Source: Chiloscyllium plagiosum (taxonomy: Eukaryota). Taken from it: a stretch of DNA of 64,000 nt. The position numbers and the translations under genes are program-made. Shown one piece after another: positions 7,995-63,377 of this stretch (the first letter of the stretch is position 1; each line of letters starts with the position of its first letter). The stretch covers positions 14,382,364 through 14,446,363 of the forward strand of contig NC_057719.1 in NCBI RefSeq assembly GCF_004010195.1, written 5' to 3'. Under the pieces are notes generated by a model. The model was given only the letters and a program-made list of their open reading frames with translations. It did no database searches and was not told where the DNA came from.

Positions 7995-8100
7995 GGAACA
8001 AAGCCAGAAATTGCCTGAAAAGCTCATCAGGTCTGGCAGCATCTGTGAAGAGAAAGCAGAGATAATGTTTCTGGTCCAATGACCCTTCTTCAGAACTACT
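7995..8100 (-). mobile_element. Penelope-like terminal repeat, family D, with hammerhead-like motif
   Basis: Minus strand reads gtt-CTGAAGA-agggtc-attg-gacca-GAAA-catt; related copies at 14783-14910, 16252-16392 and 36435-36640. Confidence 0.7.
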
Positions 8101-8139
8101 GGACATTTGGAAGGTCCTGTTGTCAGAATCACCAGAATA

Positions 8140-8362
8140 GTTGCAGTGGAGGAACTGAGAAGATTTACTGCCACAGAAGGCTGTGGAGGCCAGGTCATTG
8201 AGTATACTTAAGACTGAGATAGATAAGTTCTTGAGTATCAATGGGATCAAGAGATATGGAGAGAAAATGGTACAATGGGGTTGGGAAACGTATTAGCCAT
8301 GATTGAATGTTGAGCAGATTTGATGTGCTGAATGGCCTAATTTCTGCTCCTATGTCTTATAT
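8140..8362 (+). mobile_element. CR1 3' end
   Basis: LPQKAVEARSLSILKTEIDKFL..KGI-like remnant and 'gctgaatggcct..ctcctatgtcttat' tail. Confidence 0.8.
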
Positions 8363-8364
8363 TT

Positions 8365-9320
8365 CAATGAAATAGAGTCTTTCCTGGAAGCAGGGTGTGA
8401 GGATGTATAGTTGAAGTAACTGTGGGAGTCATTTGGTATGGAATGGATATTGTGGTCAGCCTAGCTCCCGAAATGAAAATAGAGATGTTAGCAAAGGGAG
8501 GGGAGGAGTCAGATATGGACCAGGCATAAGGAAGAGCAAGGTGGAAATTGGAAATTGATGAATATTTCCAATTCTGGATGAGAGAGGGAAGCAGCACTGA
8601 TGATGTTATCGATATGCCAGAGAAAGAGTTGCAGCGTAGGACTAGAACAAGGAAAGCCCCATGTACCCCAGAAAGGTACAGTCAAAACTTGTGCCCATGC
8701 CTGTATCTATGGCCAGACCTTTGATCTGAAGAAAGTGGGAGGAGTCAAAAATGAACCTACCCAGGGTGAGGAGCAGCTCAGCCAGATAGAGGAAGCTGGT
8801 GGTGGATGGGGACAATTCAGGCCTTTTTTTCCAGGAATAAGTGGAAAGCCCTGAGACCATCCTGATGGAGTATGAACGTGTAAAAGGATTGCATGTTCAT
8901 GGTAAAGAGGCAGTTAGAACCTGCAAACTAGAAATTCTGATGTATAGCGGGAGAGGGATTGTGGATATCAGTGGGAAGGCACTGTACAAGGGAGAGGGGG
9001 ATTAAAATCGAGTCAAGTTAGGAAGAGAAGAGTTATGTGGGGCAGTAACAGCCAGAAACAATGGGTCTGCCTGGGGATTCCTGTTTCTGAATTTTGTAAA
9101 GGAGATAGAAGAAGGCTATATGGGGTTGGGGGTCTGTGAATTTGGAGGAAGTGGCGGTGGGACCACCAGTTGAAATGAGGTTAGTTATTAGGACACAAGA
9201 CTTGGCATTCCATGTTGGGGTAATGATCCAAGGGAAGATAGGAGGAGGAGGTGGTACCTGAAAGCTGGTACTCAACCTCCACAATGCAGAGGTTGGTACG
9301 CCAGACAACAGCACCATTTT
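8365..9320 (-). mobile_element. Decayed Penelope-like reverse transcriptase
   Basis: FYLLYKIQKQESPGRPIVSGCYCPT and HFLQIKGLAIDTGMGTSFDCTFLGY match Penelope RT motifs (PKIHK..PGRPIVS; G.AMG). Confidence 0.85.
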
Positions 9321-9377
9321 GGGAAGCTCTGCTCTATGGCAGGCTCCTTAGATAAAGAGACCAAAGCTGCGTATAAC

Positions 9378-9785
9378 ACAGAATCACACAATTGTTACAG
9401 CACAGAAAAAGGCCATTCAATCTATCATGTCTGCTTTGGTTCCATTACTTAGTGTTAGTATCCTACCTTTCCCTATATCCTACCTTTTCCCCATAGGGGG
9501 CAACACGTGCAATTCATCTTTTAGCACACTTCATGAGAACCACAACTCACTGGATGTGACATTTCCTTTCTCCTAATGTTGATAAATCTACAGGATTTGA
9601 ATGTGCATTATTTCCACAAAAAAGAAGTCCCACATTTTGGACTTTTTTCTCTAAATCCTCTGGACTTGCTACTCCATCTCCATCCAAATCTTGATTCATT
9701 GCTCCCTTGACCAGTTCATTTGAACTTGCCTCCACCATATTGCCAGGCAATGCTTTCCATACTCACTGGATGAATTTTTTTTCTC
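9378..9785 (-). mobile_element. CR1 3' fragment interrupted by a 175-bp insertion (9495-9669)
   Basis: CR1 tail at 9378-9494 resumes at 9670 (MPGNMVEASS). Confidence 0.7.
9495..9669 (+). repeat. Direct repeat, copy 1 (copy 2 at 11422-11596)
   Basis: Ungapped 175-nt alignment with about 14 mismatches by manual count. Confidence 0.95.
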
Positions 9786-10280: not shown

Positions 10281-10445
10281 CTATATGAATATGCAGAAAA
10301 TGGATTTACTATCAATCTCCTCTGATAGGTGGAGAACAGAGGTACAGAACATTATCACAGAGTTTTCTATTTTAAGTAGAATACATTTTATAAAAAGTAA
10401 AATTGCAGAACTCAACTGCAAAGAGTTGCCAGTGTGGTCTATTGT

Positions 10446-10896
10446 GCATGTAGGTTTGCTCGCTGAATGGAGATTCATTTTCAGACGTTCGTCACCCTAT
10501 TGGGTAACATTTTCAGTGGGCCTCAGGTGAAGCAGTGTACATGTTTCCTGCTTTCTATTTATATGTTTGGGTTCCTTTGGGTTGGTGATGTCATTTCCTA
10601 TTCTTTTTCCCAAGGGGTGGTAGATGGGGTCTATCAACAAACACATTGAATTAGACCCCATCTACACCCCCTGAAAAAAATAGGAAATGACATCACCACA
10701 GGAAATGACATCACCAACCCCAGGAAACCCAAACATATAAGTAGAAAGTAGGAATCATCAGCAGTTCTTCGCCCGGAGGCCCACTGAAGGTGTTACCTAG
10801 TAGGGTGACAAAACATCTGGATATGAACCTTCCAGCTCAGCGAGCAAACCTACATCCAGAACCTCAATCTGAACTACAAATGTTCTCAAAACTCGC
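10446..10896 (+). mobile_element. Penelope-like terminus, family C, fold-back insertion
   Basis: About 10448-10632 is inverted relative to about 10654-10856; TSD tggtctattgt at 10435-10445 and 10897-10907; degenerate hammerhead motifs on both arms. Confidence 0.8.
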
Positions 10897-11421
10897 TGGT
10901 CTATTGTTTTAACCTCTGAAATGTCACCATAAAACAGCTTACTGTACTCAGTTGGCTGATACATGACAGCTAGCAATTGATTAAAAGACTCAGATAGCAA
11001 AGGCAACATTTTGGTTACACAGATCCAGAAAGCCTTCAGTTAAAGCCCATTAATCCAAGTATCTTCCTACATCCATCTAACCTGTGCATTTGTTTGCAAG
11101 TTCTTGTTTTTTGCTGAGGCCATGAAATGTAAAAAAAAATTGTTCTTTCTAGAAATGAAATGCAGAATAAGCAGGTCCAAACCAACTGGACAAGTCTTCT
11201 AAAAGATACATATGCAAAAGCGAAACTGCAAGGAAGAGTTATAGATTGAGGCAAGCTGACACATGCTATCAAAGATTACTTTCAAACTGAAGGTGCAACT
11301 AACTGTATAGTTGAAAGGTTAAATATTGTGAAGTACATTTACAACAATGTAAAACACTTTGCTAGTTACTTCTATGCATGAAAATTTCTATTACACTGTG
11401 AATATGTTTGAATTATCCAGG

Positions 11422-12089: not shown

Positions 12090-14325
12090 TTTTCATTCAT
12101 TCATGAGCCGTAGGTATTATTGGTGAGGATAGCATCTATTGTCTATTCCTAGTTGCCATTGAGAAGGTGATGTGTTGCTGGAAAAGCACAGCAGGTCAGG
12201 CAGCATCCAAGAAGCAGAATCAACGTTTTGGGCATGAGCCCTTCTTCAGGAATGAGGAAAGTGTGTCCAGCAGTCCCAACCCTCAAACTCAGCACCACCT
12301 TCCTAACCTGCAATCCTCTTCCTGACCTCTCCGCCCCCAACCCCACTCCGGCCTATCACCCTCACCTTAACCTCCTTCCACCTATCGCATTTCCAACACC
12401 CCTCCCCCAAGTCCCTCCTCCCTACCTTTTATCTTAGCCTGCTGGACACTTTCCTCATTCCTGAAGAAGGGCTCATGCCCGAAGCGTCGATTCTTCTGCT
12501 CCTTGGATGCTGCCTAACCTGCTGAATTCTAAGGTGAATTCCAGCAACACATTTTCAGCTCTGATCTCCAGCATCTGCAGTCCTCACTTTCTCCTTGAGA
12601 AGGTGATGGTGAGCTGCAGTCCATATGCTGTAGGTTGGCCTGCAATGCCCTTAGGGAGGGAATTCCAGAATTTTGACCCAGTGATGATATATTTCCAAGT
12701 CAGGATGTTGTGTGGCATGAAATGGAATTTGCAGGTGATGATGTTACCATGTATCTTTTGCCTTTACCCTACTAGATGGTCGTGGATGTGGTTTTGGATG
12801 GCACTGCATAAGAAATTTTGGTAAATTTCTGCAATGCATCTTGTAGATATTGTTGAGACTGAGCATTGCTGGAGGAGGCAGTGTATGCTTGTGGGTACAT
12901 TACCAGTCAAGCTTGTTGAAATGGCACACATCCAGACAAGCGGGCAGTATTCCATCACACTCCTGAGTTGTGACTTGTAGCTAATTATCAAGTTTCAGGG
13001 GGTCAGGAAGTGAGTTATTCACTGCATGGTTCCTTGCCTCTGAACAGCCAATGTAGCCAATTATTTATGTGGCTAGTCCAGTTCAGTTTATGATCAATGG
13101 TAACGCTCAGGATGACGAAAATAGAAGATTTAGTAAAGGTGATGCCAAAGAACAGCAAGGTGTGATCCTTCCTTATTGGAGATAGTTATTGTCCAGCACA
13201 AATGTTAGTCTCCAATTGCCATCTCAAGCCTGGATATTGTTTTGTTCTGGATGCATTTGAAGTGCCTGCTTCAATTTCCGAGGATCACAAATGGTGTGAA
13301 CATTGCACAATCATCAGCGAACATCCTCACGTCTGATCTTATGATGGAGGGAATGTCATTGAGGAAGATGGTTGGGCCAAGGACATTACTCTGAGGAACT
13401 CCTGCAGAGATGTCCTGGAGCTGAGATGACTGACCTCCAACAGCCACGACCATCTTCCTATGTGTCAGGTATGATGCCAACTGGCAGAGAGCTTTCACCC
13501 GATTACCATCGATTCCAGTTTTCTAAGGGCTCCTTGATGCCTTGGTCAAATAGAGCAGTCAACTCTCACTTCACCTTAGAATTCAGATTTTTTCTTCATG
13601 TTTGAAGCCTGTAATGAGCTGAGTGGCCTTGGCAGACCCTAAACTGGGCGTCACTGAGCAGATTAATGCTGCTTAGTAACACTATTGATGTAACCTTCCA
13701 TCACTTTACTGATGATCAAGAGTAAACAGATGGGGCAGTTATTGGCTGTGTTGTATTTCTCCTGCTCTTTGAGTACAGGACATGGCTGAGCAATTTTCCG
13801 CATTGTTGGGAAGATGCTAATGTTGTAACTCTAATAGAAGAGTTGGGGAGCGGCAAGTTTTGGAGCACAAGTCTTCAGTACTATTGCCAGAATGTTGTCA
13901 GGGCCCACAGCCTTTGCAGTATCCAGTGCCTGCATCACACTTGTTGATATTGAGTGGAGTGAATCGAATCGGCTGAAGACTGGTAACTGTAATGTTGGGG
14001 ACCACCGGAGGAGGTCGCAATGGATCATCTGCTGAAGATTCTTGCTAATGCTTCAGCCTTATCTTTTTTACTGATGTGCTGAACTCCTTCATCACTGAAG
14101 ATGGGAATGTTTGTGAACCCTCCACCTCAATGAGTTGTTTAACTGTCCACCTCCATTTAGAACCAGGTCTGGCAGGAGTGCACAGTTTAGATCTGATCCA
14201 TTGGCTGTGGGATCATTTAGCTCTATCACTTGCTGCCTATGCCGTTTGGTAACTTCACCAGCTTGACATCTCATTTTATGTTCCTAGCATACCCTCCTGC
14301 ACTATCCACTAAATTAGGGTTGATC
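12090..14325 (-). mobile_element. Second LINE family (CR1-group), ~2-kb decayed RT and C-terminus
   Basis: KAVGPDNILAIVLKTCAPKLAAP; SYLTHRKMVVAVGGQSS..AGVPQSNVLGPTIF..MFADD; YKSQLRSVMEYCPLVW. Confidence 0.9.
12173..12594 (+). mobile_element. Penelope-like terminus, family A, with 5' inverted partial copy
   Basis: TSD ttgagaaggtgatg at 12159-12172 and 12595-12608; hammerhead-like motif at 12461-12488. Confidence 0.9.
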
Positions 14326-14740: not shown

Positions 14741-15110
14741 CTCTCTCGAGACCAAGAGCATCCTTCTTAGCTGCTTTCAGTTGTGATGAAGGCTCAATGG
14801 ACTCAAAAGATTGACTGCTTCACTCTCTACAGATGCTACCAGACCTGCTGAGTTTCTCCAGCACTTTCTGTTTTTGTTTCAGATCGCCAGCATCTGCGGT
14901 TCTTTGTTACATTTTGTGTTACAGATTGCATTGGGACTCTGTTGTCGCTGACAGTGATGCCCAGTTTTGATTTGCTAAATCTGATTTAATCCTTCTGAGA
15001 GGAGGAACACTTTTGAGTCTCCATCTATCTTCCTTCTCCATCTACAATTTAATTGGGCGAAAGCTTCATCAGTCATTGTTGAACATCGAGGGGTGGGTCG
15101 AAGTGGGATA

Positions 15111-15590: not shown

Positions 15591-17193
15591 CCTCCTGCCC
15601 GGATACCCATATGGCCTAATAGTGCCAGTCGAGCAGGAAGCTGCCAGAAGCAGCTGAGAGAGATTCCTGGCAGAAAACTGGAATGGTACCCATTGGCAAT
15701 CTTCATCAGAGAAATCTACTGGTAATCCACTAGTATTTACCAATCTCTACTGGTCTCAAATACTGGTTGACTTACTGTTCCTACAGGGTTGGTGCAAGTC
15801 TTTCCTATTTCTGCCTTGGGAGTCAATTGGGCTCCTTGGCCATCAGGTCACAGGACGGAATGTCCTGTTCCACCTCAAGCTGCAGGACTGTCTGAGACCT
15901 TGGGGGGGCAACAGCAAGAGGTTGAAGGCCCCGGCTACTGACGAAAGGCCAGCGCTAAGGACTGAGATCAGCAGGAAGCCAAGTGAGGGGAGGGGAGGGG
16001 AGGGGAAGGGAAGGGGATGGCAGCTTACCCTAGGGGGGTGCGCGGAGGTCACAGGAAGAGGGCTCTCACAGGGGGTTGAAGACACGGACAAGAGGCGAGT
16101 CTTGAAGTCACCCCTTCCATGCCATTGATTGCACCGCCCCTCATCAACTTAGAGGCCAAACTCAGCATCTCCCCTCCAACGCCCCAAGCAATACAGAAGG
16201 CAGGCCATCCCATGTTACCACTCAGGAAGACTGTCACTTTCTCACCTCATATACAACAAAGAATTGCAGATTCTGGAGATCTGAAACAAACCAGAACAGA
16301 AATTGCTGGAGAAACTCAGCAGGTCTGGCTGCATCTGTGGAGAGAAAACAGAGTTAACTTTTTCGAGTCCAATGACTCCCCCCTTCAGAACTCTCACTTT
16401 CTTACCTGTTGGGCGCAGGATGAATCTGACCAGTAATGAGTTGGGGACCCTTAGGTGGTTGTTAATTGATCACTATACTGGTTGGGAAAGTTGACATATG
16501 GACCAGTCCACTCAGGACTTAACTGGTGGAACAGGCTGGAGGGGCTGAATGGCCTACACTTTTTCCTATGTTCATTGCTGAGGTTGTGGGAAGGGGATGT
16601 GTCTCCCCTGGTGCCAATCTGCTTTACTATTTGCCCTTCCCACTACCTTCCCCATTACTTTTAGTGAGGGTATATATTCACAATGTGGTCCTAGGAGGGA
16701 ATGGAAACAATATGTTGCTCTGAAAAACACATTCAGAAAATCAAGTCTAATTGAAGCAAGCTGTACAGACCAGGTGATATTTCTTCTTCCAAATTCTTAT
16801 GTTCATATAAAGCAAGAGAAAAGGATTTCCATTCCTGAATTATCCAGCAGTGCAATACTTTACACAGGTTGGTGCTTAATATTTAACTGATGAATTGAGT
16901 GTGATAATCCAAAATTCTGGTGCATTTACATTCTGTATTTCCTGCTACTGTGTGACTGTATGGTCAAAGCTGTGTGGCATTTTAAGAATTCACACATAAC
17001 ACATGTATTGCATTATAAACTTCACAAATAATTTAGCAGGAAACAACATACCTCTGGAGTTTTAATAATGTTCCACTTTACTTAAAGATCCATTTCAGCA
17101 TGCACTCTGAACTCCATGCTTTGGAATAACCTCAGTTTTTATGGATGGCGAAGAAATGGACTACGCCCATTTCTCTTTGGTCTCATTCTCCTT

Positions 17194-17432
17194 CAAGAGC
17201 AGGTGAGGACTGCAGATGCTGGAGATCAGAGTCGAAGAGTGTGGTGCTGGAAAAGCACAACGAGTCAGGCAGCATCCGAGGAGCAGGAGCATAAGCTCTG
17301 ATGCTGTTAGGAATGTTCGTGATGTTCCTCTTCACCACTTTCCCGATGAAGAGCTTATGCTCGAAACATTGACTCTCCTGCTCCTCGGATGCTGCCTCAC
17401 CGGCTGCGCTTTTCCAGCACCACACTCTTCGA
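17194..17432. mobile_element. Penelope-like family A fold-back insertion
   Basis: Inverted arms at about 17229-17288 and 17374-17435; TSD ctcattctcctt at 17182-17193 and 17433-17444. Confidence 0.9.
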
Positions 17433-18505
17433 CTCATTCTCCTTTATCTCATTTTCGTTAAGTCCAGAAGTACATGCAACTGAGGTCAACTTCAACAATC
17501 AAAAACTGCCTGTTACATAACCCTGTCCTGCCAGTTATATCTAATCAGCTTGTTCAGAGATATTATTACACATGCCCGGAGCAAGTGAGACTTGAACTCA
17601 GGCCTCCTGATGAAGCCATATCCCATTTTTAGGAGGCCAGGTCATTTTGAAGCCTCAATCACATGACTAACTCCAGACCAATATTTTAATCAATGGTAAA
17701 GCAACATTTCAGTGTTCTGCCACCTCTCTTCCTCCTCCCTCCACAAAACCAATTATAAACTTATCCTTTAGCTGCTGCACGACTGAGTAAACCTGAGAAT
17801 ATGAGTTGTCTACACTTCCCTTTATTTGACTTCCTAAAACCACCCAGGGACTATTGTAATCCTCAACACTGAATCTGTTGGTCACCTTTGCTGATACTCA
17901 GGCAGCATCTCCTTTAAAGTAATTCATTTCGTTCTGTTCTCCCATTGCTCAGATGACTAGCCTGTGGAATTCTCTGCCGCAGAAAACCACTGAGTCAAAA
18001 ACACAGAACTTTTTCAAGGAAGAGTTAGACATAATTCTGAGGGCTAAAGAGTAAGGGGACCAAGTGAGAACAGAGTATTGAGTAATACTTTGAGAAATTC
18101 ACTTGTGGGACTTGAGCCCCGATGGCTGGCCCGCATTTATTTCCAATCCCAAATTGCCCTTGAACAGCCATGTTCAGGTTGAACAGCAGAAAAGGCTCAA
18201 AAGGCTGAAAGGGTGAATCCTGCTCTTATGTGACCTCCAACAATCACAAATATCATTCATTGTGCTAAAGGTGACTCCAACCAATGCAGGCCCATATGTA
18301 GATATATAGGGTTAGTTCACAGATTAGCCAACATCTCATTGAACGATGGTAGAATGGTTCAATGGACAAAATGACCTTCTCCTATTCCTATGACTCATAG
18401 TCCTTTGAGGAGAAAGTGAGGTCTGCAGATGCTCGAGATCAGAGCCGGAGATGTGTTGCTGGAAAAGCGCAGCAGGTCAGGCAGCATCCAGGGAACAGGA
18501 GAATC

Positions 18506-18533
18506 GACGTTTCGGGCATAAGCCCTTCTTCAG
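18506..18533 (-). ncRNA. Minimal type I hammerhead ribozyme motif
   Basis: Minus strand CTGAAGA-A-GGGC-TTAT-GCCC-GAAA-CG-TC; catalytic core intact. Confidence 0.75.
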
Positions 18534-18538
18534 GATTC

Positions 18539-18566
18539 CTGAAGAAGGGCTTATGCCCGAAACGTC
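18539..18566 (+). ncRNA. Minimal type I hammerhead ribozyme motif
   Basis: CTGAAGA-A-GGGC-TTAT-GCCC-GAAA-CG-TC; catalytic core intact, palindromic ACGT at stem III. Confidence 0.75.
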
Positions 18567-20001
18567 AATTCTCCTGTTCCCTGGATGCTGCCTGACCTGC
18601 TGCGCTTTTCCAGCAACACATCTCATAGTCCTTTGAGTCTACCGATCTCATACAAATAGACAATACACAGAAAATTCAACAACCTTCCTCCTTTACAGAA
18701 GCAACTCACATCAGGTTGCAACCATGGGTGCCCAATGTAAATGTGGAGATGAAAACTGGACCTTATAATCACTGGAATTTAAGATTATACTTTCAATTAA
18801 TTTGGAGATAGTTAGTAGTCTCTATGAAGACTAACTTAAGTGGAATATCTTATCCAAGTAAAAATAAATAAACCTCACCTGATGGGGCAATGTTTTTATA
18901 TTTTGGAATTGCAACTCATTGCTTCTGACATTAAAGTATGTTCAATTACTAGAATTGCTCATTAGTTATTTGCTTAGTTTATCTAAGGTCAAGTGAAACC
19001 TGAGAACATGCCGTGTGAGAGAGACTTGTAACAACTCAATGTTGAAAAAGATCAGCAGTTTACAGCATTAACTTTAATTGCTAATCAGCATTAAACCACA
19101 CCACAGCAAGTCCCAGATCACCTTGAGGGCTTAAATGGCAAAAAGGCAGAGAAAATATGGGGTTGAACCTTACTGTGCTTTGGCTAAGTTTGGGTTACAT
19201 TGAGGGATTTTGTTTGCTGTAGGATTTCTCCCTGTATATGACCAACCTTGCCTCATTGACTGACAAGGGCATTGGCTGGTCAGTTAGCTAGAAATGGTAT
19301 GCAAGGGAATGGGGAGAAAGCAGGAGGTTGGCATAATAGGCAGAATGGTCTCCTTCTATGCCATTAGAATTCTGTGATCTACTCTGCCCTGTAACGTCCC
19401 TGAATCCCAGAACATCTTGCCACTCAGTGGATGTTCACTGAAACACTCCTGTTGCCCGCACCACTCCTTCATTATCCTGACAGCCCATTTCATCACATCT
19501 CCCTCACCACCACTCCCCATGTGGAGACCCGCCACTCCCCCTCCTCAATAGCCTGCCGTCCCCCCCAATGTTGATCCACTTACCACCTCCCCCACCCACT
19601 TCACTGACTTTACCCCGGCCCTATCCTTTTCCCCACCTCAGCCCATGCCTCTGCTGTCTCCTGCCAGCCTCGACTTACCCACCCCTTTAGGCAATGACCC
19701 TCCCTCTCTGCCCCTATTCCAGCCAGCCCCCTCAACAATCAATGCATGGACTCCGAGCACTGGATTCAAACCAGATCTCTGACCTACATTGACTAGCAGC
19801 CCCTAGACCTTTCTGACCAGACTGCTGACCATTGTCTTTGCAGCTCTCAGACTGACAACATGCAAATCGCTTGATCTTTGGTGATGCCCACTCCCCAGAG
19901 TGTAGTCAGACACATCCATGACCATGCCCTGCCCAAGCGGGCAAAGACTGTGACCAGCCCCTGGACTGTATGTGCCCATGATTGATGGCATTGGCTACAT
20001 G

Positions 20002-30186: not shown

Positions 30187-30230
30187 ATGTTCTCTCTGTC
30201 TGTGATGAACACGCCCTATGCATTAATATA

Positions 30231-30436
30231 GGAGAAAGTGAGGACTGTAGATGCTGGAGATCAGAGCTGAAAATGTGGTGCTGGAAAAGCGCAGCAGGTC
30301 AGGCAGCATCTAAGGAGCAGGAGAATGGACGTTTCGGGCTTTCCTGAAGAAGGGCTCATGCCCGAAACGTCGATTCTCCTGCTCCTTGGCTGCTGCCCGA
30401 CCTGCTGCGCTTTTCCAGCACCACATTTTCAGCTAA
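30231..30436. mobile_element. Penelope-like family A fold-back insertion
   Basis: Inverted arms; TSD gcattaatata at 30220-30230 and 30437-30447. Confidence 0.92.
30344..30371 (+). ncRNA. Minimal type I hammerhead ribozyme motif
   Basis: CTGAAGA-A-GGGC-TCAT-GCCC-GAAA-CG-TC. Confidence 0.75.
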
Positions 30437-30689
30437 GCATTAATATATTCAGCTTCAAGTGCACCAGCTTCACTGATAATCTTCAATTGGTTCTCAGCAT
30501 CATTCTTCACACACTTGAGATTATTTACCAACTGTTGTCCAATCAGAGAACCACATCTAATGTTGGACATTGTGTTACGAGTTTTGCAAGTGCTGGCTGC
30601 TTGGGTATGGTCAAAATCTTGCTTGTTGTGAACAACCAAAGGAATAAATTGTTTGTACAATCCATCAGTACTTGGATCTGCAGTACTGA

Positions 30690-36434: not shown

Positions 36435-36640
36435 AATAAAACAAAGAACCTCTGATGCTGGAGATCTGAAACAAAAATAGAAATTGCTGATGAAACTCAG
36501 GGAGAAAGCCGAGTTAACCTTGCAAGTCCAGTGACGCTTCATCAGAACGTGTGAGTCACCAGAGTTGAAATGTTGACTCTGCTTTCTCTCCACAGATGCT
36601 GCCAGACCTACTGAATTTTGCCAGCAATTTCTGGTTTTAT
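36435..36640. mobile_element. Penelope-like family D fold-back
   Basis: Inverted arms agaaattgctg / cagcaatttct; same family as 7995-8100. Confidence 0.7.
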
Positions 36641-37229
36641 TAAAGAAAATGTTAACATAAGTTCAACAGGATTTTCTGTTCTACTTTGAAACAGGAATTG
36701 CAAGCTTTATATTTCAGCTTTGTTAAATGAAAAGAAAAATTGTGTTTACAGTTGTTTATCTTTATTCAGATTTAATATTTTTTTCCTTGGGCAATTATGT
36801 CATGGTAAAAGTACGCATATGTCTTAGATTACAATCTCACCCAATTATTCAGATGGTGAGGCATTTCTCAACATGTCAATTAAATGTTCCACCAGAACTT
36901 AGATGCAGGTGTGACTTTCATCATATTTACAGAATGTTGGTTTCAAAGTGTAGAAAACAGTGAAGATATATCCCAATTTCTCAAAATAGCTATTCATCAA
37001 GTCTGCTTAGTCTTTCGGATAAAATGGAAAAATCCATCATCCAACTCAGCTTCTTCAATTCAAAAATTAAGAAATAACAGAGTCATTTTTCACTGAGATT
37101 ACAAAATACCCAGTGGGGGAGTGGTGGCCAAATTAATGACAGCTTGCCGGATTAGAGTTAGCCAATGAAATTTCCTCTCAGGCTAAGGCTCTGTAGAATT
37201 AGGTGCCCCTCCTTACAATATACAAATTT

Positions 37230-38385: not shown

Positions 38386-40973
38386 TGAAAATGCGGGTGA
38401 AAAAGTCAGGCTACACTGGTATGGAATACCAGGAGCATTATATGGAGATAAGAGGAGTAATTGGAGCCAATTTAATAAACTTGAATAACTTCTCAACTCT
38501 ACTGTAAGAAAGTAAGCTTATGCATTAACAAGTCACTGTAACATTCCACATTAGAGCAAAGGGTAGGTCGCCATAAAATGCATTCTCAATGGAGAACAAG
38601 AGCAGACCTGATGTATGTTGCACAAATCCAATTTCTCAGTCAGTAAGCAAAATGCCTTTTATAATTGTAGGACAAAACTTCATGAAGGTGGTTGATGAAT
38701 TCACGCCAGAATTCCAAACTTTTGTGACAGAGAGGTTCCACTATGAATGGCCGTGGGTGTATTAATACTTTCGCAATATACAATAAAGAGAAATAAATTT
38801 TGAATTCATTCCTTATGAAATTCTTCAACAACCATGAAGTAACAGCAGGAAATAAAGTACACAGCTTCATTTCCATTTTAAAATATTCTCCAAATTTACA
38901 ACAAAAATATTAGGATTGTGTAACAGAAATGCTTGTAATATTGAGCATATCACTGCAAATAAAAATCATGCAATGAACTAGACTTTAATCATATCCCTTT
39001 GTAATTATTGGAATGGAAATGCTAACAAAACAATGACCAAACATAACTTCAAAAGGATATAAAAAGCATTAATCAAGAGATCACTTTCATTTCTAGCCCA
39101 TCCTGATAATACTCAGTGTACTTAGGGCACCAGCCACAACAGCTGTTTGACCATGGCTTCGCGGGTCTTACATTTTGTCAGTCACTTATGACATGTCTGT
39201 TTTTTTCAGGCCTATTGGTTAAACTCCAAGTGCACTCCTTTCAGAGTATTACTTTTACTGCTTCCTAATGAATTTTCTATGTTGCACTGAAGTTATTTGT
39301 CAAAAATGTGCAGTGATGTCCACCCTTGAAAAAACAAGAGTGCAATGGAATCATCGTTAAGAGCATATCACAGCAATGCATTACCTTAGTTATACACTAT
39401 ACATGTGATATATATTTTATTTATTCATAAAATCATTCTAATGTCTTTATCTTTAACAGTCACATCAGATCAATTTAAAACTTAAATCACTAAAAGCTCA
39501 GTATTGAAATGATACTCATATCCATTTAATTACTTGGATTATCTGTATTGGTGCTTGCAATTATAACATTTTCAACAAAGCAACCTCTGAGGCTTGGCCA
39601 CAGCTTTATTGAACAGGACCACTCCTCAGTCTTTCTGAGCCTTCACTCACACTTCACTCTTCAGTCATATCCCCAAACTGAACAGACAATTCGTGTCACT
39701 ATTGCCCTTCTTCAGCCATCCCTGGTTATGCTCTACATAAACGTCCTCTCAAATCTCTCACACTTGGCTTTTCCTCATTGGAGAAAGGAGTTCCTGCCAC
39801 CAGGGAGAGGCAGAGAACCAAGGTTAGACCAAATACTGAGTACTGCAGAACAGACTGTGAACTTGGATAAGGGTGATGCTGCCCAAGGGTGTAGGCAATG
39901 GAGAGGTAGTATTAGATATCATACTGCCATTCGATACATACAGTCACCGCATGCTGAATTGAACTAGTAATAGAAATGGCATAATACATAGAATCACTTT
40001 CCTAATGTCAACAATAATTTATATCATTCCTTCAGTGGCAGGGACAGGAGGATGCCAGGAATCCTCAAAGGAGGCATGCACCTAAGTGAGTACTGTATTG
40101 TGACACACTCATACCACCCTCCAGCTGTGCAGGTACGGACAGCTTGGCAGCTACTTGAGTAGAAATAGCTTGGTTGTCAGACAGCTGTTAGCCTCTGGAG
40201 AACAAAGCAATGCTGGAGACAAGTAGAGCTCTGAAAACTCTTCAGAGTGTACAGTACTCAGCACAATGTGGCTCCGATGGGCTGAATTGTCTGCTTCCAC
40301 ACTTTAGGGATTCTATGATGCCCTATATACTTGTCTACAATCTGGTCATATTATTTTCCTGAAGACTACTATTCATTTGCTGTCCGCAATGCAGTAAAGT
40401 GAATGGTTGAAGAACAAAGACTGCAAGTAGATTATTTGACTCATTTATGTAAAGACATACTGAACATCCTTCCTCAAACCTAAGTGAATAACGTTGTGCA
40501 ATAATTAAGTCTTCCTGCTCAGGCACACTGCTCAGCCTGGGGAGTTAGCTACAGAAAGGAACTTCTGAAGAAACAATGGGAAATGTGTACATTTCCAGAG
40601 GTAGTGCATACACGTGTAGAGGAGCCTCTCTCTAGTATGAGATGGTTTTTTCCGGTGTTTGCAATGTCCATCTCCTTGGGTGACCTGCATGGAGGAATGA
40701 TGGCTCAGGAAGGGAACTATGTGTAGGCCCTCAACAAGAACTTTACATTAAAGGGATGAAGGCTTGCTTTGTTGGCTCAATGCCTTACTGAGAGGCAGAA
40801 AAGGGCTCCCCTGCCTTTTGGCTTGCTGGAAAGTGCAGCTGACCTTGGGAGACAAGTCTGACAAAGAGCACATAGCGGTCAGAACTCTTCTCCAGGTGCT
40901 ACCACTTCTTATACCTCAGTCCCCTTTCCACCCTCAGGCAGAACCTCTCGTGGGGTCTCCTGCAAGGGAACCA

Positions 40974-41105
40974 CGGAGAAAGTGAGGACTGCAGATGCTT
41001 GAGATCAGAGTTGAGAGTGTGATGCTGGAAAAACACAGCAGGTCAGGCAGCATCCGAAGAGCAGGGGAATCGATGTTTTGGGCATAAGCCTTTCATAAGG
41101 AATGA
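40974..41105 (-). mobile_element. Penelope-like family A terminus (single arm)
   Basis: TSD caagggaacca at 40963-40973 and 41106-41116. Confidence 0.88.
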
Positions 41106-45721: not shown

Positions 45722-45893
45722 AGGAGAAAGTGAGGACTGCGGATGCTGGAGATCAGAGTTAAGAATGTGTTGCTGGGAAAGCACAGCACGCCAGGCAGTA
45801 TCCGAGGAGCAGGAGCAGAGGAGCAAGAGATTCTCCTGCTCCTCGGATCCCACCTGACTTGCTGTGCTTTCCCAGCAACACACTCTCGACTCT
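45722..45893. mobile_element. Penelope-like family A fold-back lacking the ribozyme segment
   Basis: Inverted arms; imperfect TSD gagctcaatacaaat (45707-45721) / gagctccatccaaat (45894-45908). Confidence 0.85.
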
Positions 45894-46944
45894 GAGCTCC
45901 ATCCAAATGTCTAGCATGGCTTTTACATTTTGGGATTGCCACGGATCCTTGTGTTCAGTGGCATCAATCAAACACTCAGGTGCATTATAAAGCACTGACC
46001 CTCCTCAATATCCACCCACATTGTGAGAGCCTATACCAGAGATTTAACAACGCTACTCTGATGTGATATGAACAAGCAATGTTTTTCTGTCACACCACAG
46101 GTGAAAATACGTGGTACAATAATGTCAGATAAGAATTGATTAAATAGCTATATCACAGCAAATAAGTATATAGGACGAACGTTATGATTGGGTTTATCTA
46201 ACTTAATTGAAAATCCTCTCGCTTCTTACATCAGTGGGTCTCCTGCTCAGTCTGTCTGAGCCTGGTGAGAGCTTGCCCTCACAGACCACTGTCAAAATCC
46301 TGAGTGATTGTCAGTTTTCTTGTCAGATAGAAAAATATGTAATCACTAAGAGAATCCAGGGTTATGGTTGTTGGGGTGGTGGGTGGTAGGAAAGTGGAGT
46401 TGATGATTATCAGATCAGCCATGATCTCATTGCATGGCAGAATAGACTTGATGGGCTGAATGGCCTATTTCAGCTCCTATGTCTTATGGTCTTATCCAGC
46501 TGAGTCTTGGCAGTGGACAGGGCAATACCTTCTGCAACTAATGTCTTCTAATCATGGCTATCTCCATCTTTCTCCACCACTTTATTACCCTCATCAACCA
46601 GTTGCTGCTTTGAGTGTCCCACTCTTTGGCAGTATATGTCCCTCCATCTCAATCTGCTCCTCACTGAAGGAGGCAAAAGCTGACTATGTGTAACCAATTG
46701 CTCTGTGCTGAACTTAGGCCTAACAGCCTGTCAGACGCTTACCTCTATGTATGAGCTACATCTTGGAGAAACCTTTACCATAAATCTTCCTCCACTGATT
46801 TTTCCCACTTGCATTATCTTCAACTCCTGCCTCATATAGCTTAATGCCTCTCACCTTTCCTGTTTTGAGACACTGCAGATGTCAATAGCTTCCAAGCTCT
46901 CCCACTATCCACCTGCAGCTGTGCCTTTGCCTCCTTGCAGCTAG

Positions 46945-53084: not shown

Positions 53085-54215
53085 GGAAAAAGTGAGGACT
53101 GCAGATGCTGGAGATCAGAGCTGAAAATGTGTTGCTGGAAAAGCGCAGCAGGTCAGGCAGCATCCAAGGANNNNNNNNNNNNNNNNNNNNNNNNNNNNNN
53201 NNNNNNNNNNNNNNNNNNNNNNNNNNNNNNNNNNNNNNNNNNNNNNNNNNNNNNNNNNNNNNNNNNNNNNNNNNNNNNNNNNNNNNNNNNNNNNNNNNNN
53301 NNNNNNNNNNNNNNNNNNNNNNNNNNNNNNNNNNNNNNNNNNNNNNNNNNNNNNNNNNNNNNNNNNNNNNNNNNNNNNNNNNNNNNNNNNNNNNNNNNNN
53401 NNNNNNNNNNNNNNNNNNNNNNNNNNNNNNNNNNNNNNNNNNNNNNNNNNNNNNNNNNNNNNNNNNNNNNNNNNNNNNNNNNNNNNNNNNNNNNNNNNNN
53501 NNNNNNNNNNNNNNNNNNNNNNNNNNNNNNNNNNNNNNNNNNNNNNNNNNNNNNNNNNNNNNNNNNNNNNNNNNNNNNNNNNNNNNNNNNNNNNNNNNNN
53601 NNNNNNNNNNNNNNNNNNNNNNNNNNNNNNNNNNNNNNNNNNNNNNNNNNNNNNNNNNNNNNNNNNNNNNNNNNNNNNNNNNNNNNNNNNNNNNNNNNNN
53701 NNNNNNNNNNNNNNNNNNNNNNNNNNNNNNNNNNNNNNNNNNNNNNNNNNNNNNNNNNNNNNNNNNNNNNNNNNNNNNNNNNNNNNGGACCAGTGGGGTT
53801 CTGTCCTGGTGGCGATTGGAGGGGTGGGGCTCAAGGGCGGAGGAGCGGGAAGTGGAGGAGATGGGGTGGAGAGCATCGTCGATCACGTCTGGGGGGAAAT
53901 TGCGGTCTTTGAAGAAGGAGGCCATCGAGGTTGTACAGTATTGGAACTGGTCCTTCTGGGAGCAGATGTGGAGGAGATGAAGGAATTGGGAATATGGGAT
54001 GGTGGTTTTACAGGGGGCAGGGTGGGAGGTGGTGTAGTCTAGGTAGCTGTGGGAGTCGGTCGGTTTATAGTAAATGTCCACGTTGATTCGGTCGCCCAAG
54101 ATAGAAATGGAGAGGTCTAGGAAGGGGATGGAGGCGTCTGAGATGGTCCAGGTAAATTTGTGGTCGGGGTGGAAGATGTTGGTAAAGTGGATGAACTGTT
54201 CAACCTCCTCGTGGA
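53085..54215 (-). mobile_element. Young Penelope-like element, family A (RT thumb plus terminus), spanning the assembly gap
   Basis: DIYYKPTDSHSYLDYTTSHPAPCKTTIPYSQFL..FFKDRNFP; family A terminus at 53085-53170. Confidence 0.92.
53171..53786. other. Assembly gap
   Basis: Run of N. Confidence 1.
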
Positions 54216-54299
54216 AGAAAAATCAAAAAGTAAAGATAAGGAGATTGAAATACAATTAAGAGAGACTATGTTTGATCAAATAGTTGAGACAAAACAAGT

Positions 54300-59145: not shown

Positions 59146-59990
59146 TAAGTTCATAAGATTTAGAAGCAGAATTCGCCATTCGGCCCATCGGGTCTGCTCT
59201 GCCATTCGATCATGGCTGATCTACTCCTCACCCCCATTTTCCTGCTTTCCCTCCATATCCCTCCAACCCGTTACCAATTAAAAAATCTATCTAACTCCTC
59301 CTTAAATTTACTTATTTTCCCAGCATCCACCGCAGTTTGGGATAGCAAATTTCACAGATTAACAACCCTTTGGGAGAAGTAGTTTTTCCTCAACTCTGTT
59401 TTAAATTTGCTGCCCCTTTCCCCTAAGACTAACCTCTCGTCCGAGAATGCCCCACAGGAGGAAGCATCCGCTCCATGTCTATTTTATCCACACCTGTTAT
59501 CATCTTGAATACCTCAGTTTGATCTCCCCTCATTCTTCTAGATTCCAGAGAGGATAGGCCTAAACTGTTCAATCTCTCTTCATACGACAAACCCCTCATC
59601 TCTGGGATCAATCTAGTGAACCTTCTCTGAACTGCCTACAGTGCCACTACATCATCTCTCAAATAAGGGGACCAAATATGTGCACAATACTCCAGATGCA
59701 GTCTCACCAATACATTGTATAACTGCAACAATACTTCCTTATCTATACATTCCATTCATTTAGCTTTAAAAAGCCAACATTCCTCTCACTCTCTGTATTA
59801 TTTGCCTGCATGCTAGTTTTCTGCGACTCTTGAATGAGTATACTTAGATCCCTCTGCACCGGAGCACCCCGAAGTTTCTCCCTCTTAAGATAATAGGTCG
59901 CCTTCCCATTTTATTGACCCAAATGCATGACCTCACACTTATCCACGTTAAACGCTACGTGTCACATTTTGGCCGACTCTCTTAACCTAT
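59146..59990 (-). mobile_element. CR1 3' fragment splitting the Gypsy RT
   Basis: MIPEMRGLSYEERLNSLGLSSLESRRMRGD; Gypsy RT stops at 59145 and resumes near 59990. Confidence 0.92.
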
Positions 59991-62384
59991 GTTCTTCATT
60001 ACATTGTAGGATTTATCTACTGAAGGGGTTCCAGCAGGTAGCATTACCACCAAAGCATACAAGTAAACAGTTTTTGTTACACCTATGGGCAATGTCAAGC
60101 TATTGCATTTGGGTTTAAAAATGCACCAGCAACATTCCAAAGACTAATGAATCAAGTCATAGCAGTACTGCCTAACTGTGTAATTTATTTAGGAGATGTC
60201 ATAATATGTGATAACACATTGGAATACAATGCAAAGTAATTGGATGGATTGTTTCGATAACTACAGCTAGTTGGCTTAATAATAATTCTCAAAAGTGAAT
60301 TTGCAAAAGCAAGGTTATTTCCCAAGCATGTATTGTATTGCAAGGGCAGTATTTTCCAAGAACAAAAATCAAAACTCTGATAGAATTCCCTTTCCTGAAA
60401 CGAAACAGAAAATTATGATATTTCTGAGAATGTGTGGGTTTTATCAAATATTTGTGCCTAATTTTAGCAGAATAGCTGTGCCTTTAATGGATTTGTAACA
60501 AAAACAGGTAACGGTTTTTATAGACAACAGCCTTTGAGATGCTGAAGGCAATCCTATTAAATTAATTGGTGCTGCTGCCCGGTGACTTTACTGAACCTGT
60601 TTAAGATGGAAACCATTCCTAAGACTACTCTTCATCACTGTGTCTGAAAGATCCAAGTGCAACTGAAGCAAGCCATACTTTTAAAAAGATACCTTTTCCC
60701 TGAAAAATCACCATATCACCTGACTCTCTGTAACCAGTTGGTCAGGGAAACTGGAGGCAGCCTCCTACTCCTTTTGCTTAACCCATGGTAAAGAGCTAAT
60801 TTAAAGACCTCCAAAATGGGAATTCCGGTTCATGAGCCAAATACCTTCCAACTATTGCTTCAGAGTCTATGGCATCAAGATTCCACACCCAGAATCCTAA
60901 AATGAATTCCAATTTTAACACTTCAAGAAAGTGTGGATGCTATAATAGATAAATATTGTGAGATTTTCTTTCCATACTCTCCAACAGATGATGGAAAAGA
61001 AATTTTGATGTTCTGATTGCAGATGAACCTAGTTAGGAGTCCCATGACTGTATCTCTTTCAAATGGTTAAAAATTAAACCTTTGCTCAAGATTTGGTTTG
61101 AATCCAGCCATCCATCTTTTAATCAGGTATTAAACTGTGGTCTCACCTTGTTTCTTAGATGGATGTGAGAGGTGCCATCGTATTATAAAAACAATGGAAT
61201 TTTGTCTACTTTCTGGTCAATATTTATTCTTCAATCCATGACTCAAAAAAACTTATTTGATAAACGATCATCATTAACTTTCTCCTTACTGATGCTGCCT
61301 GACTTTAGCATTTGCTGCAAAATGCTTCCAGCCTTTAGTGTTTTTATTGAATGCAGATTATCTGATAATTACAACATTGTTAATGATGGGAACTTAATGA
61401 GCACAAATTGGCTGTTTCACTTCCCACATTAATATCTATACTTCAAGAGTATTCACTGCCTGCAAATTGCTTTGAGACATTTTGAGATCCTGAAAGATGC
61501 TATACAAATACCAAAAAGCTTGTGTTTCGTTCCAAAAACCAAAAATCCAAAATGTTTAAATATGTTGTGAGTTGCTACACTTCTGCCTTCCAGCGTTTTC
61601 TGATTACTGTGGACAGTATTGTTAAGCACTGCAGAATCCGACACTGTGCATTTAATTGTTCTTTATTTCAATGAAAACAATGAGAATTTGTCAACTTAAA
61701 TTCAGTTTTGGACAAGTTGCAAAAATGTTTCTGCAGTCCTCAAGGCTCAAAACTCAACAAATGTTTCTTGAATGATGCACAACAGAACAGAATAGATGCT
61801 TGTAACATGTCATGATCATCCACAAGGGATGCTGTTGCTATCTAAACACACATAAACATATTCTTATATCCTGACAACTACTATTTGTTAACATCTCATG
61901 AATGTATGTTATAAACACTAGCATCTACAAGATGAATACATCTCACTAAAATTTAACACTGGATTACTATATAAGTGACTTGTTTTTACTTGTGCATTTG
62001 GATTAAACAGTAAGCACGCCTAAATGGGGAAAGAAAAGTGAAAAATGGGACTGTACCTTTTCTCCACTTGTTGCTGATTAGCATTTAAATCCCAAAACGA
62101 TTTGAAGCAGATCAGTGGATGCTTACCTTGCATTAAAAATCTCAGTGAAGGGATTATTTGTGAGAAATCACCAGTCATGGGATATTACAAAGGACTTTCC
62201 CTTCTGAGGTAATGAGAATAACGATGAATGTGATGATTTAAATGAGTGAGAGTTCACTGATCAGAAATTCACCATCAAGTTAAACAGCACAATTATGTTG
62301 TCCCTCCCAAAATAGCGACACAAATTTTCACCATCATGGCAAGTAGTTTACTTTTCTATGTATTTACATTTCATTGATTATATT

Positions 62385-63057
62385 TTTGAAAATTCATTTC
62401 TGGGATGTGGGTGTTGCTGACGTGGCCAGCATTTATTTCCCATCCCTAGTTGCCCTTGAGAAGGTGGGGGTGAGCTGCCTTCTTGAACCCCTGCAATCCA
62501 CCTGACCTGGGTCCACAATGCCATTAGGGAGGGAATTCCAGGATTTTGGCCCAGCGACAGTGAAGGAACTCGGATATGTTTCCAACTCAGGATGGTGAAT
62601 GACTTTGAGGGGAGCTTGAAGGTGGTGGTGTTCCCATGTATCTGCTGCCCTTGTCCTTCTAGATGGAAGTGATTGTGGGTTTGGAAGGTGCTGTCTGAGA
62701 ATTTCTGGTGAATTTCTGCAGTGCATCTTGGAGATAAAACACACTGCGGGTACTGAGCGCCAGTGGTGGAGGTAGTGGATGTTTGTGGGTATAGTGCCAA
62801 TCATGTGGGTTGCTTTGTCCTGGATGGTATCAAGCTTCTTGAGTATTGTTGGAACTGTAGTCATCCATGCAAATGGGGAATATTCCATCACACACCTGAC
62901 TTGTGCCTTGTAGGTGGAGGACAGGCTTTGAGGATTCAGGAGGTCAGTTAGTTGCCGCAGTATTCCTAGCCTCTGACCTCCTCTTGTAGCCAATATATTT
63001 ATGTGGTGGGTCCAGTTGAATTCCTGGTCAATGATAACCCCCAGGACACTGATAATA
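62385..63057 (-). mobile_element. Second LINE family, 3' fragment
   Basis: GQRLGILRQL..LSSTYKAQVRCVMEYSPFAW..LKKLDTIQDKA. Confidence 0.92.
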
Positions 63058-63265
63058 TCTCACCGTATTAATTAATTTTCCCCTCAAACAAAAAACTGTT
63101 TCCAAAAATCAACAATATAAACTGAGCGGATATGTGTCACGTTGCGTATTCTGTCTTGTATCGGAGTGAGCTTATGGCTGTGCTAATCATTTTCCTTCTC
63201 TCTACTTGAAATGGAACCACTGCAACTGCATCAGGTGCCTCTACAATGTCAATGGGCACAGTAGT

Positions 63266-63377
63266 CATGATTTGGAGATGCCGGTGTTGGACTGGGGTGT
63301 GAGAAGCGGAGCTCCGAAAGCTAGTGTGCTTCCAATTAAACCTGTTGGACTATAACCTGGTGTTATGTGATTTTTAA
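63266..63377. mobile_element. Penelope-like terminus, family B, short rearranged copy
   Basis: Shares gccggtgttggactggg and ctccgaaagctagtg..cctgttggactataacctggtg with 23668-23865. Confidence 0.8.

What the first reader, a model, noticed from the sequence alone, without database searches (positions are those of the whole stretch)
8060..63330. Four different Penelope-like terminal families share one minimal hammerhead-ribozyme architecture with covarying stems
Seen: otherwise dissimilar short repeats all contain CTGANGA, one extra base, a stem II, GAAA, a 2-nt palindromic stem III and TH. Family A: GGGC-TYAT-GCCC (12461, 18539, 30344, minus 18533), with a compensatory GAGC/GCTC variant near 17344. 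Family B: GGAGC-AGA-GCTCC with stem I cac/gtg (minus 23786-23758). Family C: GTTACC-TAGTAG-GGTGAC with stem I cca/tgg (10784-10817, decayed core). Family D: GGTC-ATTG-GACC (minus, ~8093-8063). Established: Penelope-like retroelements carry minimal type I hammerheads thought to cleave as dimers. Inference: this genome is densely seeded with self-cleaving RNA motifs, some intact and possibly inside a host intron. Stem I of family A looks weak (2 bp).
Basis: partly seen in the sequence, partly recalled or inferred. Interest (0 to 1): 0.75.

Follow-up and report, generated by a model that had tools for sequence, protein, structure and literature searches.

The report
Penelope hammerhead stubs from uncut RNA
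These short repeats are end-pieces of four Penelope-type jumping-gene families that carry an already described tiny hammerhead ribozyme motif; most copies in this window are damaged, many copies across the genome begin at the motif's first base after an extra G and so were likely copied from capped, uncut RNA, while five U6 RNA copies joined at the predicted cut suggest that the motif sometimes does cut.

Summary
The shared architecture holds at family level: core, extra base, G-C-closed stem II, palindromic stem III and UH, with covarying stems; a strict descriptor finds 28 hits in 1.06 Mb against 0 in controls. It fails at copy level: 3 of 21 window copies keep the full core, the quoted B, C and D copies are core mutants, and A and D are related. 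Each family is the end repeat of its own Penelope-like retrotransposon (three Neptune-type, one Poseidon-type). Such minimal hammerheads were described in 2014, so this is a new member of a known kind. Two things go beyond that. First, 5' ends of copies pile up at the first bases of stem I, not at the cut, with a strong excess of one extra G (2,597 vs 1,554). That fits reverse-transcriptase run-off from capped, uncut RNA. Second, five U6 copies are joined exactly at family A's predicted cut, indirect evidence of occasional cleavage. Inverted pairs are single insertions whose two motifs lie on opposite strands. No host intron was shown. The scan noted both readings earlier on other windows of this genome; I reached the first independently and tested the second.

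The parts
18394..18637 (.). Family A inverted pair, one insertion flanked by a 16-bp target-site duplication (18394-18409 / 18622-18637)
   Evidence: folds as one long hairpin
18506..18533 (-). Family A minimal hammerhead, full core and stem II, stem I 2 bp
18539..18566 (+). Family A minimal hammerhead, full core; first stem I pair lost; copy begins at A(-4)
30220..30447 (.). Family A inverted unit with 11-bp TSD; the minus arm keeps only the 3' half of the motif
30344..30371 (+). Family A minimal hammerhead, full core
12159..12608 (.). Family A inverted unit with 14-bp TSD; plus arm carries about 190 nt of the element's 3' UTR; motifs at 12461(+) (GAAG) and 12249(-) (AAAA) are core mutants
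17182..17444 (.). Family A (GAGC/GCTC variant) unit with 12-bp TSD; motif at 17343(+) has CCGATGA and ACAT
40972..41105 (-). Decayed family A end (core start about 41099)
45722..45901 (.). Family A inverted tails without the motif; the plus arm starts at the predicted cleavage site
53085..53170 (-). Family A tail, joined across an assembly gap (53171-53786) to the RT fragment upstream
53788..54213 (-). Family A PLE reverse-transcriptase fragment, 82% identical to the near-intact ORF of L194
23640..23882 (.). Family B inverted unit; motif at 23786-23758(-) has AAAA for GAAA and is preceded by G-ACAACCAC
63251..63378 (.). Family B inverted remnant; 5' half of the core missing
10435..10907 (.). 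Family C (Poseidon-type) inverted unit with 11-bp TSD; motifs at 10784(+) and 10516(-) both core-mutated; arms only 76% alike
7997..8097 (-). Family D end; motif 8093-8063 with an inserted A; copy begins at A(-4)
8371..9188 (-). Decayed Neptune-type RT fragment (39-50% identical to family A RT); its relatives carry the D end about 1 kb downstream
14779..14908 (+). Decayed family D end
16273..16392 (-). Decayed family D end beginning at A(-4)
36436..36651 (.). Decayed family D inverted unit

Best explanation
The repeats are end-pieces of four Penelope-like retrotransposon families that each carry a minimal type I hammerhead motif, and many short copies are likely DNA run-offs of the capped, uncut front of the element's RNA, with the motif predicted to cut only occasionally. 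Steps. (1, shown) Each motif lies in the end repeat behind its own RT/GIY-YIG coding sequence. (2, inferred) An internal Pol II promoter starts the RNA at an initiator-like A that is the first base of stem I in A and D (TCA+1TT, TCA+1GT) and lies 8 nt before the core in B (TCCA+1CA). (3, inferred; shown in vitro for an anole Poseidon element) The RT primes at a DNA break internally on the RNA, at either of two sites about 60 and 97 nt past the cut site. (4, inferred) It copies through the uncut motif to the cap, often copying the cap as one G, and the copy is sealed with a 7-16 bp target-site duplication; in about half the events a second, inverted cDNA is joined in the same insertion. (5, inferred) The motif has almost no stem III, so it needs a partner RNA or the element's protein to cut; it sometimes does, leaving a 5'-OH end that was joined to U6 and retroposed. 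(6, shown) After insertion most copies decay, largely at CpG sites in and beside the core.
For: Linkage: motif downstream on the same strand in 15 of 19 (A), 11 of 14 (B) and 7 of 9 (C) protein-anchored loci (self hits left out) and 18 of 29 RT-anchored loci for D, 16 of them 0.94-1.39 kb downstream. An 893-aa frame has RVT_1 (E 6e-8, over cut-off) and GIY-YIG (E 3.5e-4, just under cut-off). 5' ends of tail-anchored copies fall at -10..-1 in 52 of 158 (A), 20 of 52 (B), 30 of 95 (D), against 6, 5 and 4 in the 40 nt upstream, and 8, 0 and 11 within cut-2..cut+3. Extra G: HG-ATTC+core 2,597 vs HW-ATTC+core 1,554, a G share of 0.63 against 0.25 expected. No excess at -3 or -2 ends (6 G vs 10 T; 4 G, 4 A, 4 C; hand count in the 100 rows). 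Same excess in D (35 of 100 listed, p=0.013) and B (9 of 14, p=0.003) (hand counts; test). In 3 of 11 TSD-resolved copies the G is a lone untemplated base and in 2 more it ends an untemplated stretch. 3' ends cluster at +57..69 (19 of 30) and +95..99 (6 of 30). U6: 2 of 20 and 4 of 30, 5 distinct loci, join at the exact cut, against 3 of 158 ordinary copies starting there (p about 1e-6 counting 2 further U6 joins inside the ORF). Core differs less than tail in all four families. Literature: internal initiation, protein-assisted cleavage and uncut RNA as dominant template (PMC11167929); an internal Penelope promoter (PMC2377424); extra G marks capping in L1 (PMC11702581); RtcB joins U6>p to 5'-OH RNA (PMC6789731).
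Against: No RNA evidence: the one run that gave reads covered only repeats and showed no pile-up of starts or ends at the predicted start or cut (about 2% of the run, poly(A) single-cell). In 6 of 11 TSD-resolved copies the G lies inside the TSD, and 23 of 40 G-copies have an inverted arm that can supply it; no A/T-ending control copies were fetched. Ends spread over -4..0, not one base. Family C shows no clear pile-up (3 of 21; p=0.2 vs upstream). No full pLTR-ORF-pLTR element was seen: 0 of 14 ORF-start loci had the end repeat joined upstream (one unlinked stub nearby), and 0 of 76 long A tails shared a continuation. With only long copies and variable tail columns removed, core-versus-tail conservation stays significant only in A (p=0.04; B 0.69, C 0.39, D 0.58). 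Free folding does not pick the hammerhead dimer. The U6 joins are all in one A subfamily.
Confidence: 0.68

Rival explanations
1. The 5' pile-up comes from RT pausing, fold-back or microhomology joining at the structured motif during copying of a long 3'-end transcript, and the G comes from the target site or the inverted arm; the RNA start is elsewhere. The motif itself is as in the best reading.
For: 6 of 11 resolved Gs are inside the TSD; 23 of 40 G-copies have an inverted arm; ends spread over several bases; no upstream pLTR found.
Against: The G excess is confined to the base before the initiator-like A and recurs in B and D at their own A; lone untemplated Gs exist; an RT moving 3' to 5' would be expected to pause before the stems, not after passing them (inference).
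Confidence: 0.14
2. Cleave-and-circularise model (Cervera and de la Pena 2014): tandem transcripts are cut by dimeric hammerheads, ligated to circles and copied; copies cross the cut site because it was re-ligated.
For: U6 joins show that cut ends exist and can be joined; cores are conserved across families.
Against: A circle has no 5' end, so it predicts neither the pile-up at stem I nor the extra G; few copies start at the cut; uncut RNA was the dominant template for an anole element in vitro (PMC11167929).
Confidence: 0.08
3. The 95-135 nt stubs are a self-propagating non-autonomous family: each carries promoter, motif and priming site, is transcribed on its own and is re-copied by the PLE protein.
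For: Very high copy number, shared start and two shared ends, TSDs; no continuation into an ORF in 76 long tails.
Against: Stubs share subfamily variants with ORF-linked ends; no stub-only subfamily was sought or seen; the anole element needs 172 nt of ORF RNA for binding (PMC11167929).
Confidence: 0.08
4. The motifs are kept by the host as intronic self-cleaving regulators.
For: 3 of 21 window copies and 58 of 326 sampled copies keep the core.
Against: Intact copies are simply the young ones; decay follows CpG sites; no host exon or host transcript seen; inverted pairs bury the motif in a hairpin.
Confidence: 0.02

Closest known systems
Minimal hammerheads (min-HHR) in pLTRs of metazoan Penelope-like elements (Cervera and de la Pena 2014, PMC4209133; parts 1-2 of 4 read, 2 supplementary files searched, one not searchable)
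   Same: Core, extra base between 9 and 10.1, G10.1-C11.1, palindromic 15.2-16.2, several consensus families per genome, mostly solo copies, opposite-strand pairs 100-700 bp apart; reported in Xena, Poseidon and Neptune elements of fishes.
   Different: No shark named in the passages or supplements searched; at least 46,784 exact family matches here against 4,000-9,000 in coelacanth and Xenopus (different search methods); stem II 4-7 bp and stem I 2-4 bp are shorter than the 7-8 and 4-5 bp of Schistosoma; the parts read do not describe a fixed 5' end with extra G or U6 joins.
Poseidon element of Anolis carolinensis, PAc (Frangieh et al. 2024, PMC11167929; parts 1-2 of 4 read)
   Same: Hammerhead in the end repeat, two internal RT start sites giving a 30-40 nt 'tail', uncut RNA as dominant template.
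   Different: Shown in vitro for one Poseidon element; no RNA ends found at the cut there, whereas U6 joins here record the cut; three of four families here are Neptune-type; the RNA start at stem I is not described in the parts read.
EN+ PLE clades Neptune and Penelope/Poseidon (Craig et al. 2021, PMC8557442; passages)
   Same: RT plus C-terminal GIY-YIG; CX2-5CxxC linker in A, B, D and absent in C; inverted 5'-truncated copies; optional tail.
   Different: No tree with reference elements was built; no full tandem element recovered.
U6/LINE-1 chimeras made by RtcB ligation (Moldovan et al. 2019, PMC6789731; abstract and outline)
   Same: Full U6 joined by its U-tail to a retroelement RNA end, then retroposed.
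   Different: Here the partner end is one fixed bond, the predicted hammerhead cut, in 5 of 7 U6 joins to family A.
Animal non-LTR retrozymes (bioRxiv 10.64898/2026.07.22.740005; part 1 of 5 and passages)
   Same: PLE-derived, type I hammerhead, non-coding; present in one chondrichthyan.
   Different: Defined as tandem arrays with a motif in each unit; the copies here are solo or inverted, with TSDs.

Membership tests
Minimal type I hammerhead (min-HHR) | Core CUGANGA, GAAA, UH | tested here: met
   Family majorities carry it; 28 strict hits vs 0 controls; only 3 of 21 window copies keep it
Minimal type I hammerhead (min-HHR) | Extra base between positions 9 and 10.1; G10.1-C11.1 pair | tested here: met
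   All four families
Minimal type I hammerhead (min-HHR) | Palindromic 15.2-16.2 in place of helix III | tested here: met
   ACGU in A, C, D and AGCU in B
Minimal type I hammerhead (min-HHR) | Helix I of about 4-5 bp | tested here: inconclusive
   A 2+1 bp (4 bp in one subfamily), B 3, C 3 with covariation, D 4
Minimal type I hammerhead (min-HHR) | Self-cleavage after H17, as dimer or with help | not testable with these tools
   Indirect only: 5 U6 joins at the exact bond in family A
EN+ Penelope-like element | One ORF with RT and C-terminal GIY-YIG | tested here: met
   A: 893-aa frame, RVT_1 over and GIY-YIG just under the Pfam cut-off. C: RT and GIY-YIG-like pieces in two frames; D: tblastn to A; B: GIY-YIG-like piece only, RT not examined
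EN+ Penelope-like element | Hammerhead in the terminal repeat behind the ORF | tested here: met
   15/19, 11/14, 7/9, 18/29
EN+ Penelope-like element | Inverted 5'-truncated copies and optional 30-40 nt tail | tested here: met
   5 of 6 window inverted units TSD-flanked; two 3' end clusters about 35 nt apart
EN+ Penelope-like element | Tandem pLTR-ORF-pLTR arrangement | tested here: inconclusive
   0 of 14 ORF-start loci and 0 of 76 long tails show it; many loci are truncated or gapped
Neptune clade (A, B, D) | CX2-5CxxC linker between RT and EN | tested here: met
   A CNRRRCNTC; D e.g. L225, L229; B one clear case (L211) in 15 (the regex also catches the EN CxxC, so its counts overstate)
Penelope/Poseidon clade (C) | Linker absent | tested here: met
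   0 of 10 loci
Neptune or Poseidon clade | Placement in an RT tree with reference elements | not tested
   No reference PLE proteins were fetched
Non-LTR retrozyme | Tandem arrays with a hammerhead in each unit | tested here: not met
   Window copies are solo or inverted; a few same-strand pairs 350-410 nt apart were not examined

The most novel reading that the evidence does not exclude
In these vertebrate PLEs the hammerhead is literally the first 35 nt of a capped mRNA. The genome holds hundreds of thousands of 'strong-stop' copies that map the transcription start and both RT start sites to the base, while U6 fusions record that the ribozyme cuts in the germ line. Cutting would remove the cap and first 32 nt, so the ribozyme would act as a switch that takes an RNA out of the capped pool, rather than as a processor of tandem transcripts.
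Probability: 0.4. Interest if true: 0.62.

Novelty: new member of a known kind. Interest (0 to 1): 0.42.

Why it matters
The motif and its link to Penelope-like elements are published, so the finding as written is ordinary. What the ribozyme does in these elements is described as unclear (PMC8557442), and RNA ends at the cut were not found in the one element studied biochemically (PMC11167929). Here the copies give base-level predictions: where the RNA starts, where the RT starts, that templates are mostly uncut, and that cutting still occurs. Each can be tested with CAGE, 5'-OH/cyclic-phosphate sequencing and a young near-intact family A element.

Tried and rejected
Rfam scan of the window: no hammerhead family among 13 matches up to E=10; the miRNA hits (mir-680, MIR6425, MIR1144, mir-3127) are the inverted PLE pairs and are far below cut-off. 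Pfam gave nothing on four window fragments and nothing over cut-off in 150 of 223 non-repeat frames of at least 48 aa, so no host exon was shown; short exons could be missed. Sequencing runs: no RNA holder listed. Of two raw poly(A) runs one gave no reads and the other reads almost only on repeats in 5000-19900; not used as evidence on expression. Only that stretch could be laid, so the rest of the window is untested. A shared spliced leader upstream of the 5' pile-up (as for the D. virilis intron ending at helix I) was rejected: upstream sequences are unique flank or inverted arm. A template jump onto the cut 3' fragment as source of the G in A is disfavoured because B and D show the G without a matching fragment. 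Free-energy folding does not return the hammerhead dimer and says nothing either way. The search for a full tandem element failed. Lunse et al. (PMC5785218, dimer cleavage of PLE hammerheads) is not held and was seen only as cited in PMC6765202. Literature searches for shark PLE hammerheads, for a pLTR start site at the ribozyme and for U6-Penelope chimeras listed nothing on point; the library lacks most subscription papers, Repbase/Dfam entries and bioRxiv supplements, which may name these families.


Full report
Setting. The window is C10:14,382,364-14,446,363 of a 3.56-Gb assembly. That it is a shark rests on my recall of the repeats and on earlier scan notes, not on a test. About 39% of the window is repeat by BLAST against the fetched loci.

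Observation. The stated coordinates hold hammerhead-like strings, but most are damaged. Exact CTGANGA + one base + stem II + GAAA occurs only at 18533(-), 18539(+) and 30344(+). The quoted copies at 12461, 17343, 23786 (B), 10784 (C) and 8093 (D) each carry core changes. A tail-anchored inventory finds 21 such ends in the window. At family level the architecture is real. Exact patterns number 41,780 (A), 3,665 (B), 873 (C) and 466 (D), with reversed controls 0. A family-blind strict descriptor gives 28 hits in 1.064 Mb, all from these families, against 0 reversed and 0 in five Markov simulations. That sample is the window, 200 kb on each side and six 100-kb blocks from other chromosomes. A and D are not independent: their tails align at 65-75%.

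Conservation and covariation. Among copies collected by their tail and spanning the motif, non-CpG core positions differ less than tail positions: A 3.6 vs 8.2%, B 4.1 vs 7.3%, C 2.5 vs 10.3%, D 8.0 vs 12.6%; N7 and loop II vary freely. The span requirement biases this. With only long copies the gap stays significant in A and C (p about 0.002) but not B or D, and after removing variable tail columns only in A (p=0.04). So the selection signal is mainly between families and subfamilies; individual copies decay. Covariation is seen in stem II of A (p=0.007) and D (p=0.0008 tail-anchored; p=0.59 motif-anchored) and stem I of C (p=0.002 and 7e-5); B's stem I case is not significant (p=0.06, 0.21). 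Core plus stem II survive in 40/158 (A), 8/52 (B), 7/21 (C) and 3/95 (D).

Identity. Loci picked by protein or RT DNA, not by the motif, carry the matching motif downstream on the same strand: A 15 of 19 (three of four misses have long N gaps), B 11 of 14, C 7 of 9, D 18 of 29 (3 had an A end instead, 8 nothing). L194 holds an 893-aa frame with RVT_1 and GIY-YIG and the linker CNRRRCNTC. The linker is also seen in D and once clearly in B, and in 0 of 10 C loci. By the criterion in PMC8557442 (passages) that makes A, B, D Neptune-type and C Penelope/Poseidon-type; no tree was built. The window itself has RT fragments at 53788-54213(-) (A) and 8371-9188(-) (D type). Family A ORF copies reach 98-99% amino-acid identity to each other, so it was active recently.

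Anatomy of insertions. Five of six inverted units in the window are flanked by 11-16 bp direct repeats, so each pair is one insertion. The two motifs of a pair lie on opposite strands and a read-through RNA folds into one hairpin (-181 kcal/mol); such pairs cannot be cis dimers. 3' ends of young A copies fall at +57..69 (19 of 30) and +95..99 (6 of 30) past the cut, like the two RT start sites and tail of the anole element (PMC11167929, parts 1-2).

5' ends. In tail-anchored copies the 5' boundary lies at -10..-1 before the core in 52/158 (A), 20/52 (B) and 30/95 (D), far above the 40 nt upstream (6, 5, 4) and above the motif interior; only 8, 0 and 11 start near the cut; C shows 3 of 21 (21 of 347 tail hits were dropped because they did not reach the tail's start). 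Upstream is unique flank or an inverted arm, not a shared leader. The modal A(-4) of A and D, and A(-8) of B, lie in initiator-like strings (consensus recalled, not tested). Genome-wide, A copies starting at -4 are preceded by G 2,597 times and by A/T 1,554 times, where 0.25 G is expected; ends at -3 and -2 show no such excess (hand count); D (35 of the first 100 of 531) and B (9 of 14 among the first 100 of 1,603) show it more weakly. Of 40 G-copies fetched (from the first rows), 23 have an inverted arm and 17 unique flank. Of 18 examined, 13 have a TSD: G inside it in 6, lone and untemplated in 3, ending an untemplated stretch in 2, undecidable in 2. An extra G marks capping in full-length L1 (PMC11702581, one passage), and Penelope has an internal promoter (PMC2377424, passages). 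I infer that many stubs are run-offs to the cap of an RNA whose first bases are stem I, copied while uncut. This agrees with uncut RNA being the dominant template in vitro (PMC11167929). Against: no RNA data support it, G inside TSDs and inverted arms blur the count, no A/T control copies were resolved, and no master with an upstream end repeat was found.

Does it cut? Earlier scan notes pointed to U6 fusions, which I tested. Of 48 U6 matches I fetched 20 dispersed ones: 2 continue exactly at family A's predicted cut and 2 into the A ORF interior (the latter read by eye against the L194 protein). A U6 3'-end pattern lists 30 places (7 in the reversed control), 4 of which continue at the cut. 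That is 5 distinct loci, against 3 of 158 ordinary copies starting there. RtcB joins U6 cyclic phosphate to 5'-OH RNA (PMC6789731, abstract); a template switch at a free 5' end would give the same product. Either needs an RNA end at that bond, so the ribozyme likely cuts at times. I saw this only for one A subfamily; the notes' claims for other families were not checked.

Comparison. PMC4209133 (parts 1-2) already describes this architecture, multiple families per genome, solo copies, opposite-strand pairs and weak dimer cleavage; PMC6765202 (passages) reviews it; PMC8557442 calls the function unclear; the 2026 retrozyme preprint (part 1, passages) includes one chondrichthyan. The finding is therefore a new member of a known kind. 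My searches listed no paper on a capped start at stem I or on U6 joins at the cut, within a library that lacks most subscription papers.

Host gene. No exon over Pfam cut-off in 150 of 223 non-repeat frames and no reads on unique DNA in 5000-19900. A scan note places LTBP2 38 kb beyond the window (not checked). The intron idea is unproven.

Verdict. Observation partly confirmed, interpretation partly supported. Identity as PLE min-HHR ends about 0.95; the capped, uncut run-off mechanism with occasional cutting 0.68; interest 0.42.

Noticed in passing
window 48101-48189 (+): tRNA-like match over the Rfam cut-off (36 bits) with a 19-nt insert in the anticodon loop; probably a tRNA pseudogene
   Followed up: no
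window 30632-31276 (+), 14985-15590, 56300-56880 (-), 72-320, 23437-24095, 44862-45250: 3' ends of a CR1/L2-type LINE (name recalled), several 85-94% alike
   Followed up: no
window 19989-20220, 28861-29145, 41580-41776, 42632-42867, 51464-52215, 54298-54613, 58582-58827: Many copies of a tRNA-derived SINE of the shark HE1 type (name recalled)
   Followed up: no
L372, L375, L376, L379, L384, L387-L390: Of 20 dispersed U6 copies, 8 are joined to the 5' end of that SINE and one (L372) to a tRNA-like sequence (read by eye)
   Followed up: no
L381, L385: U6 joined to the interior of the family A endonuclease region rather than at the cut
   Followed up: partly
window 49513-50741 (+): Decayed frames resembling a LINE ORF1 esterase region and the start of an APE endonuclease (recalled; no Pfam hit)
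   Followed up: partly
window 60042-60236 (+): Another small RT fragment (RVT_1, E 1.3e-4, under cut-off)
   Followed up: no
L038, L033, L343, L113: Different PLE families are often joined directly to one another (A arm next to a B or D end), suggesting cross-family template switching or insertion into each other
   Followed up: no
window 53171-53786 and many ORF loci (L164, L174, L176, L355, L356): Assembly gaps fall inside young family A copies, so long ORF lengths reported by the genome search can be runs of N
   Followed up: partly
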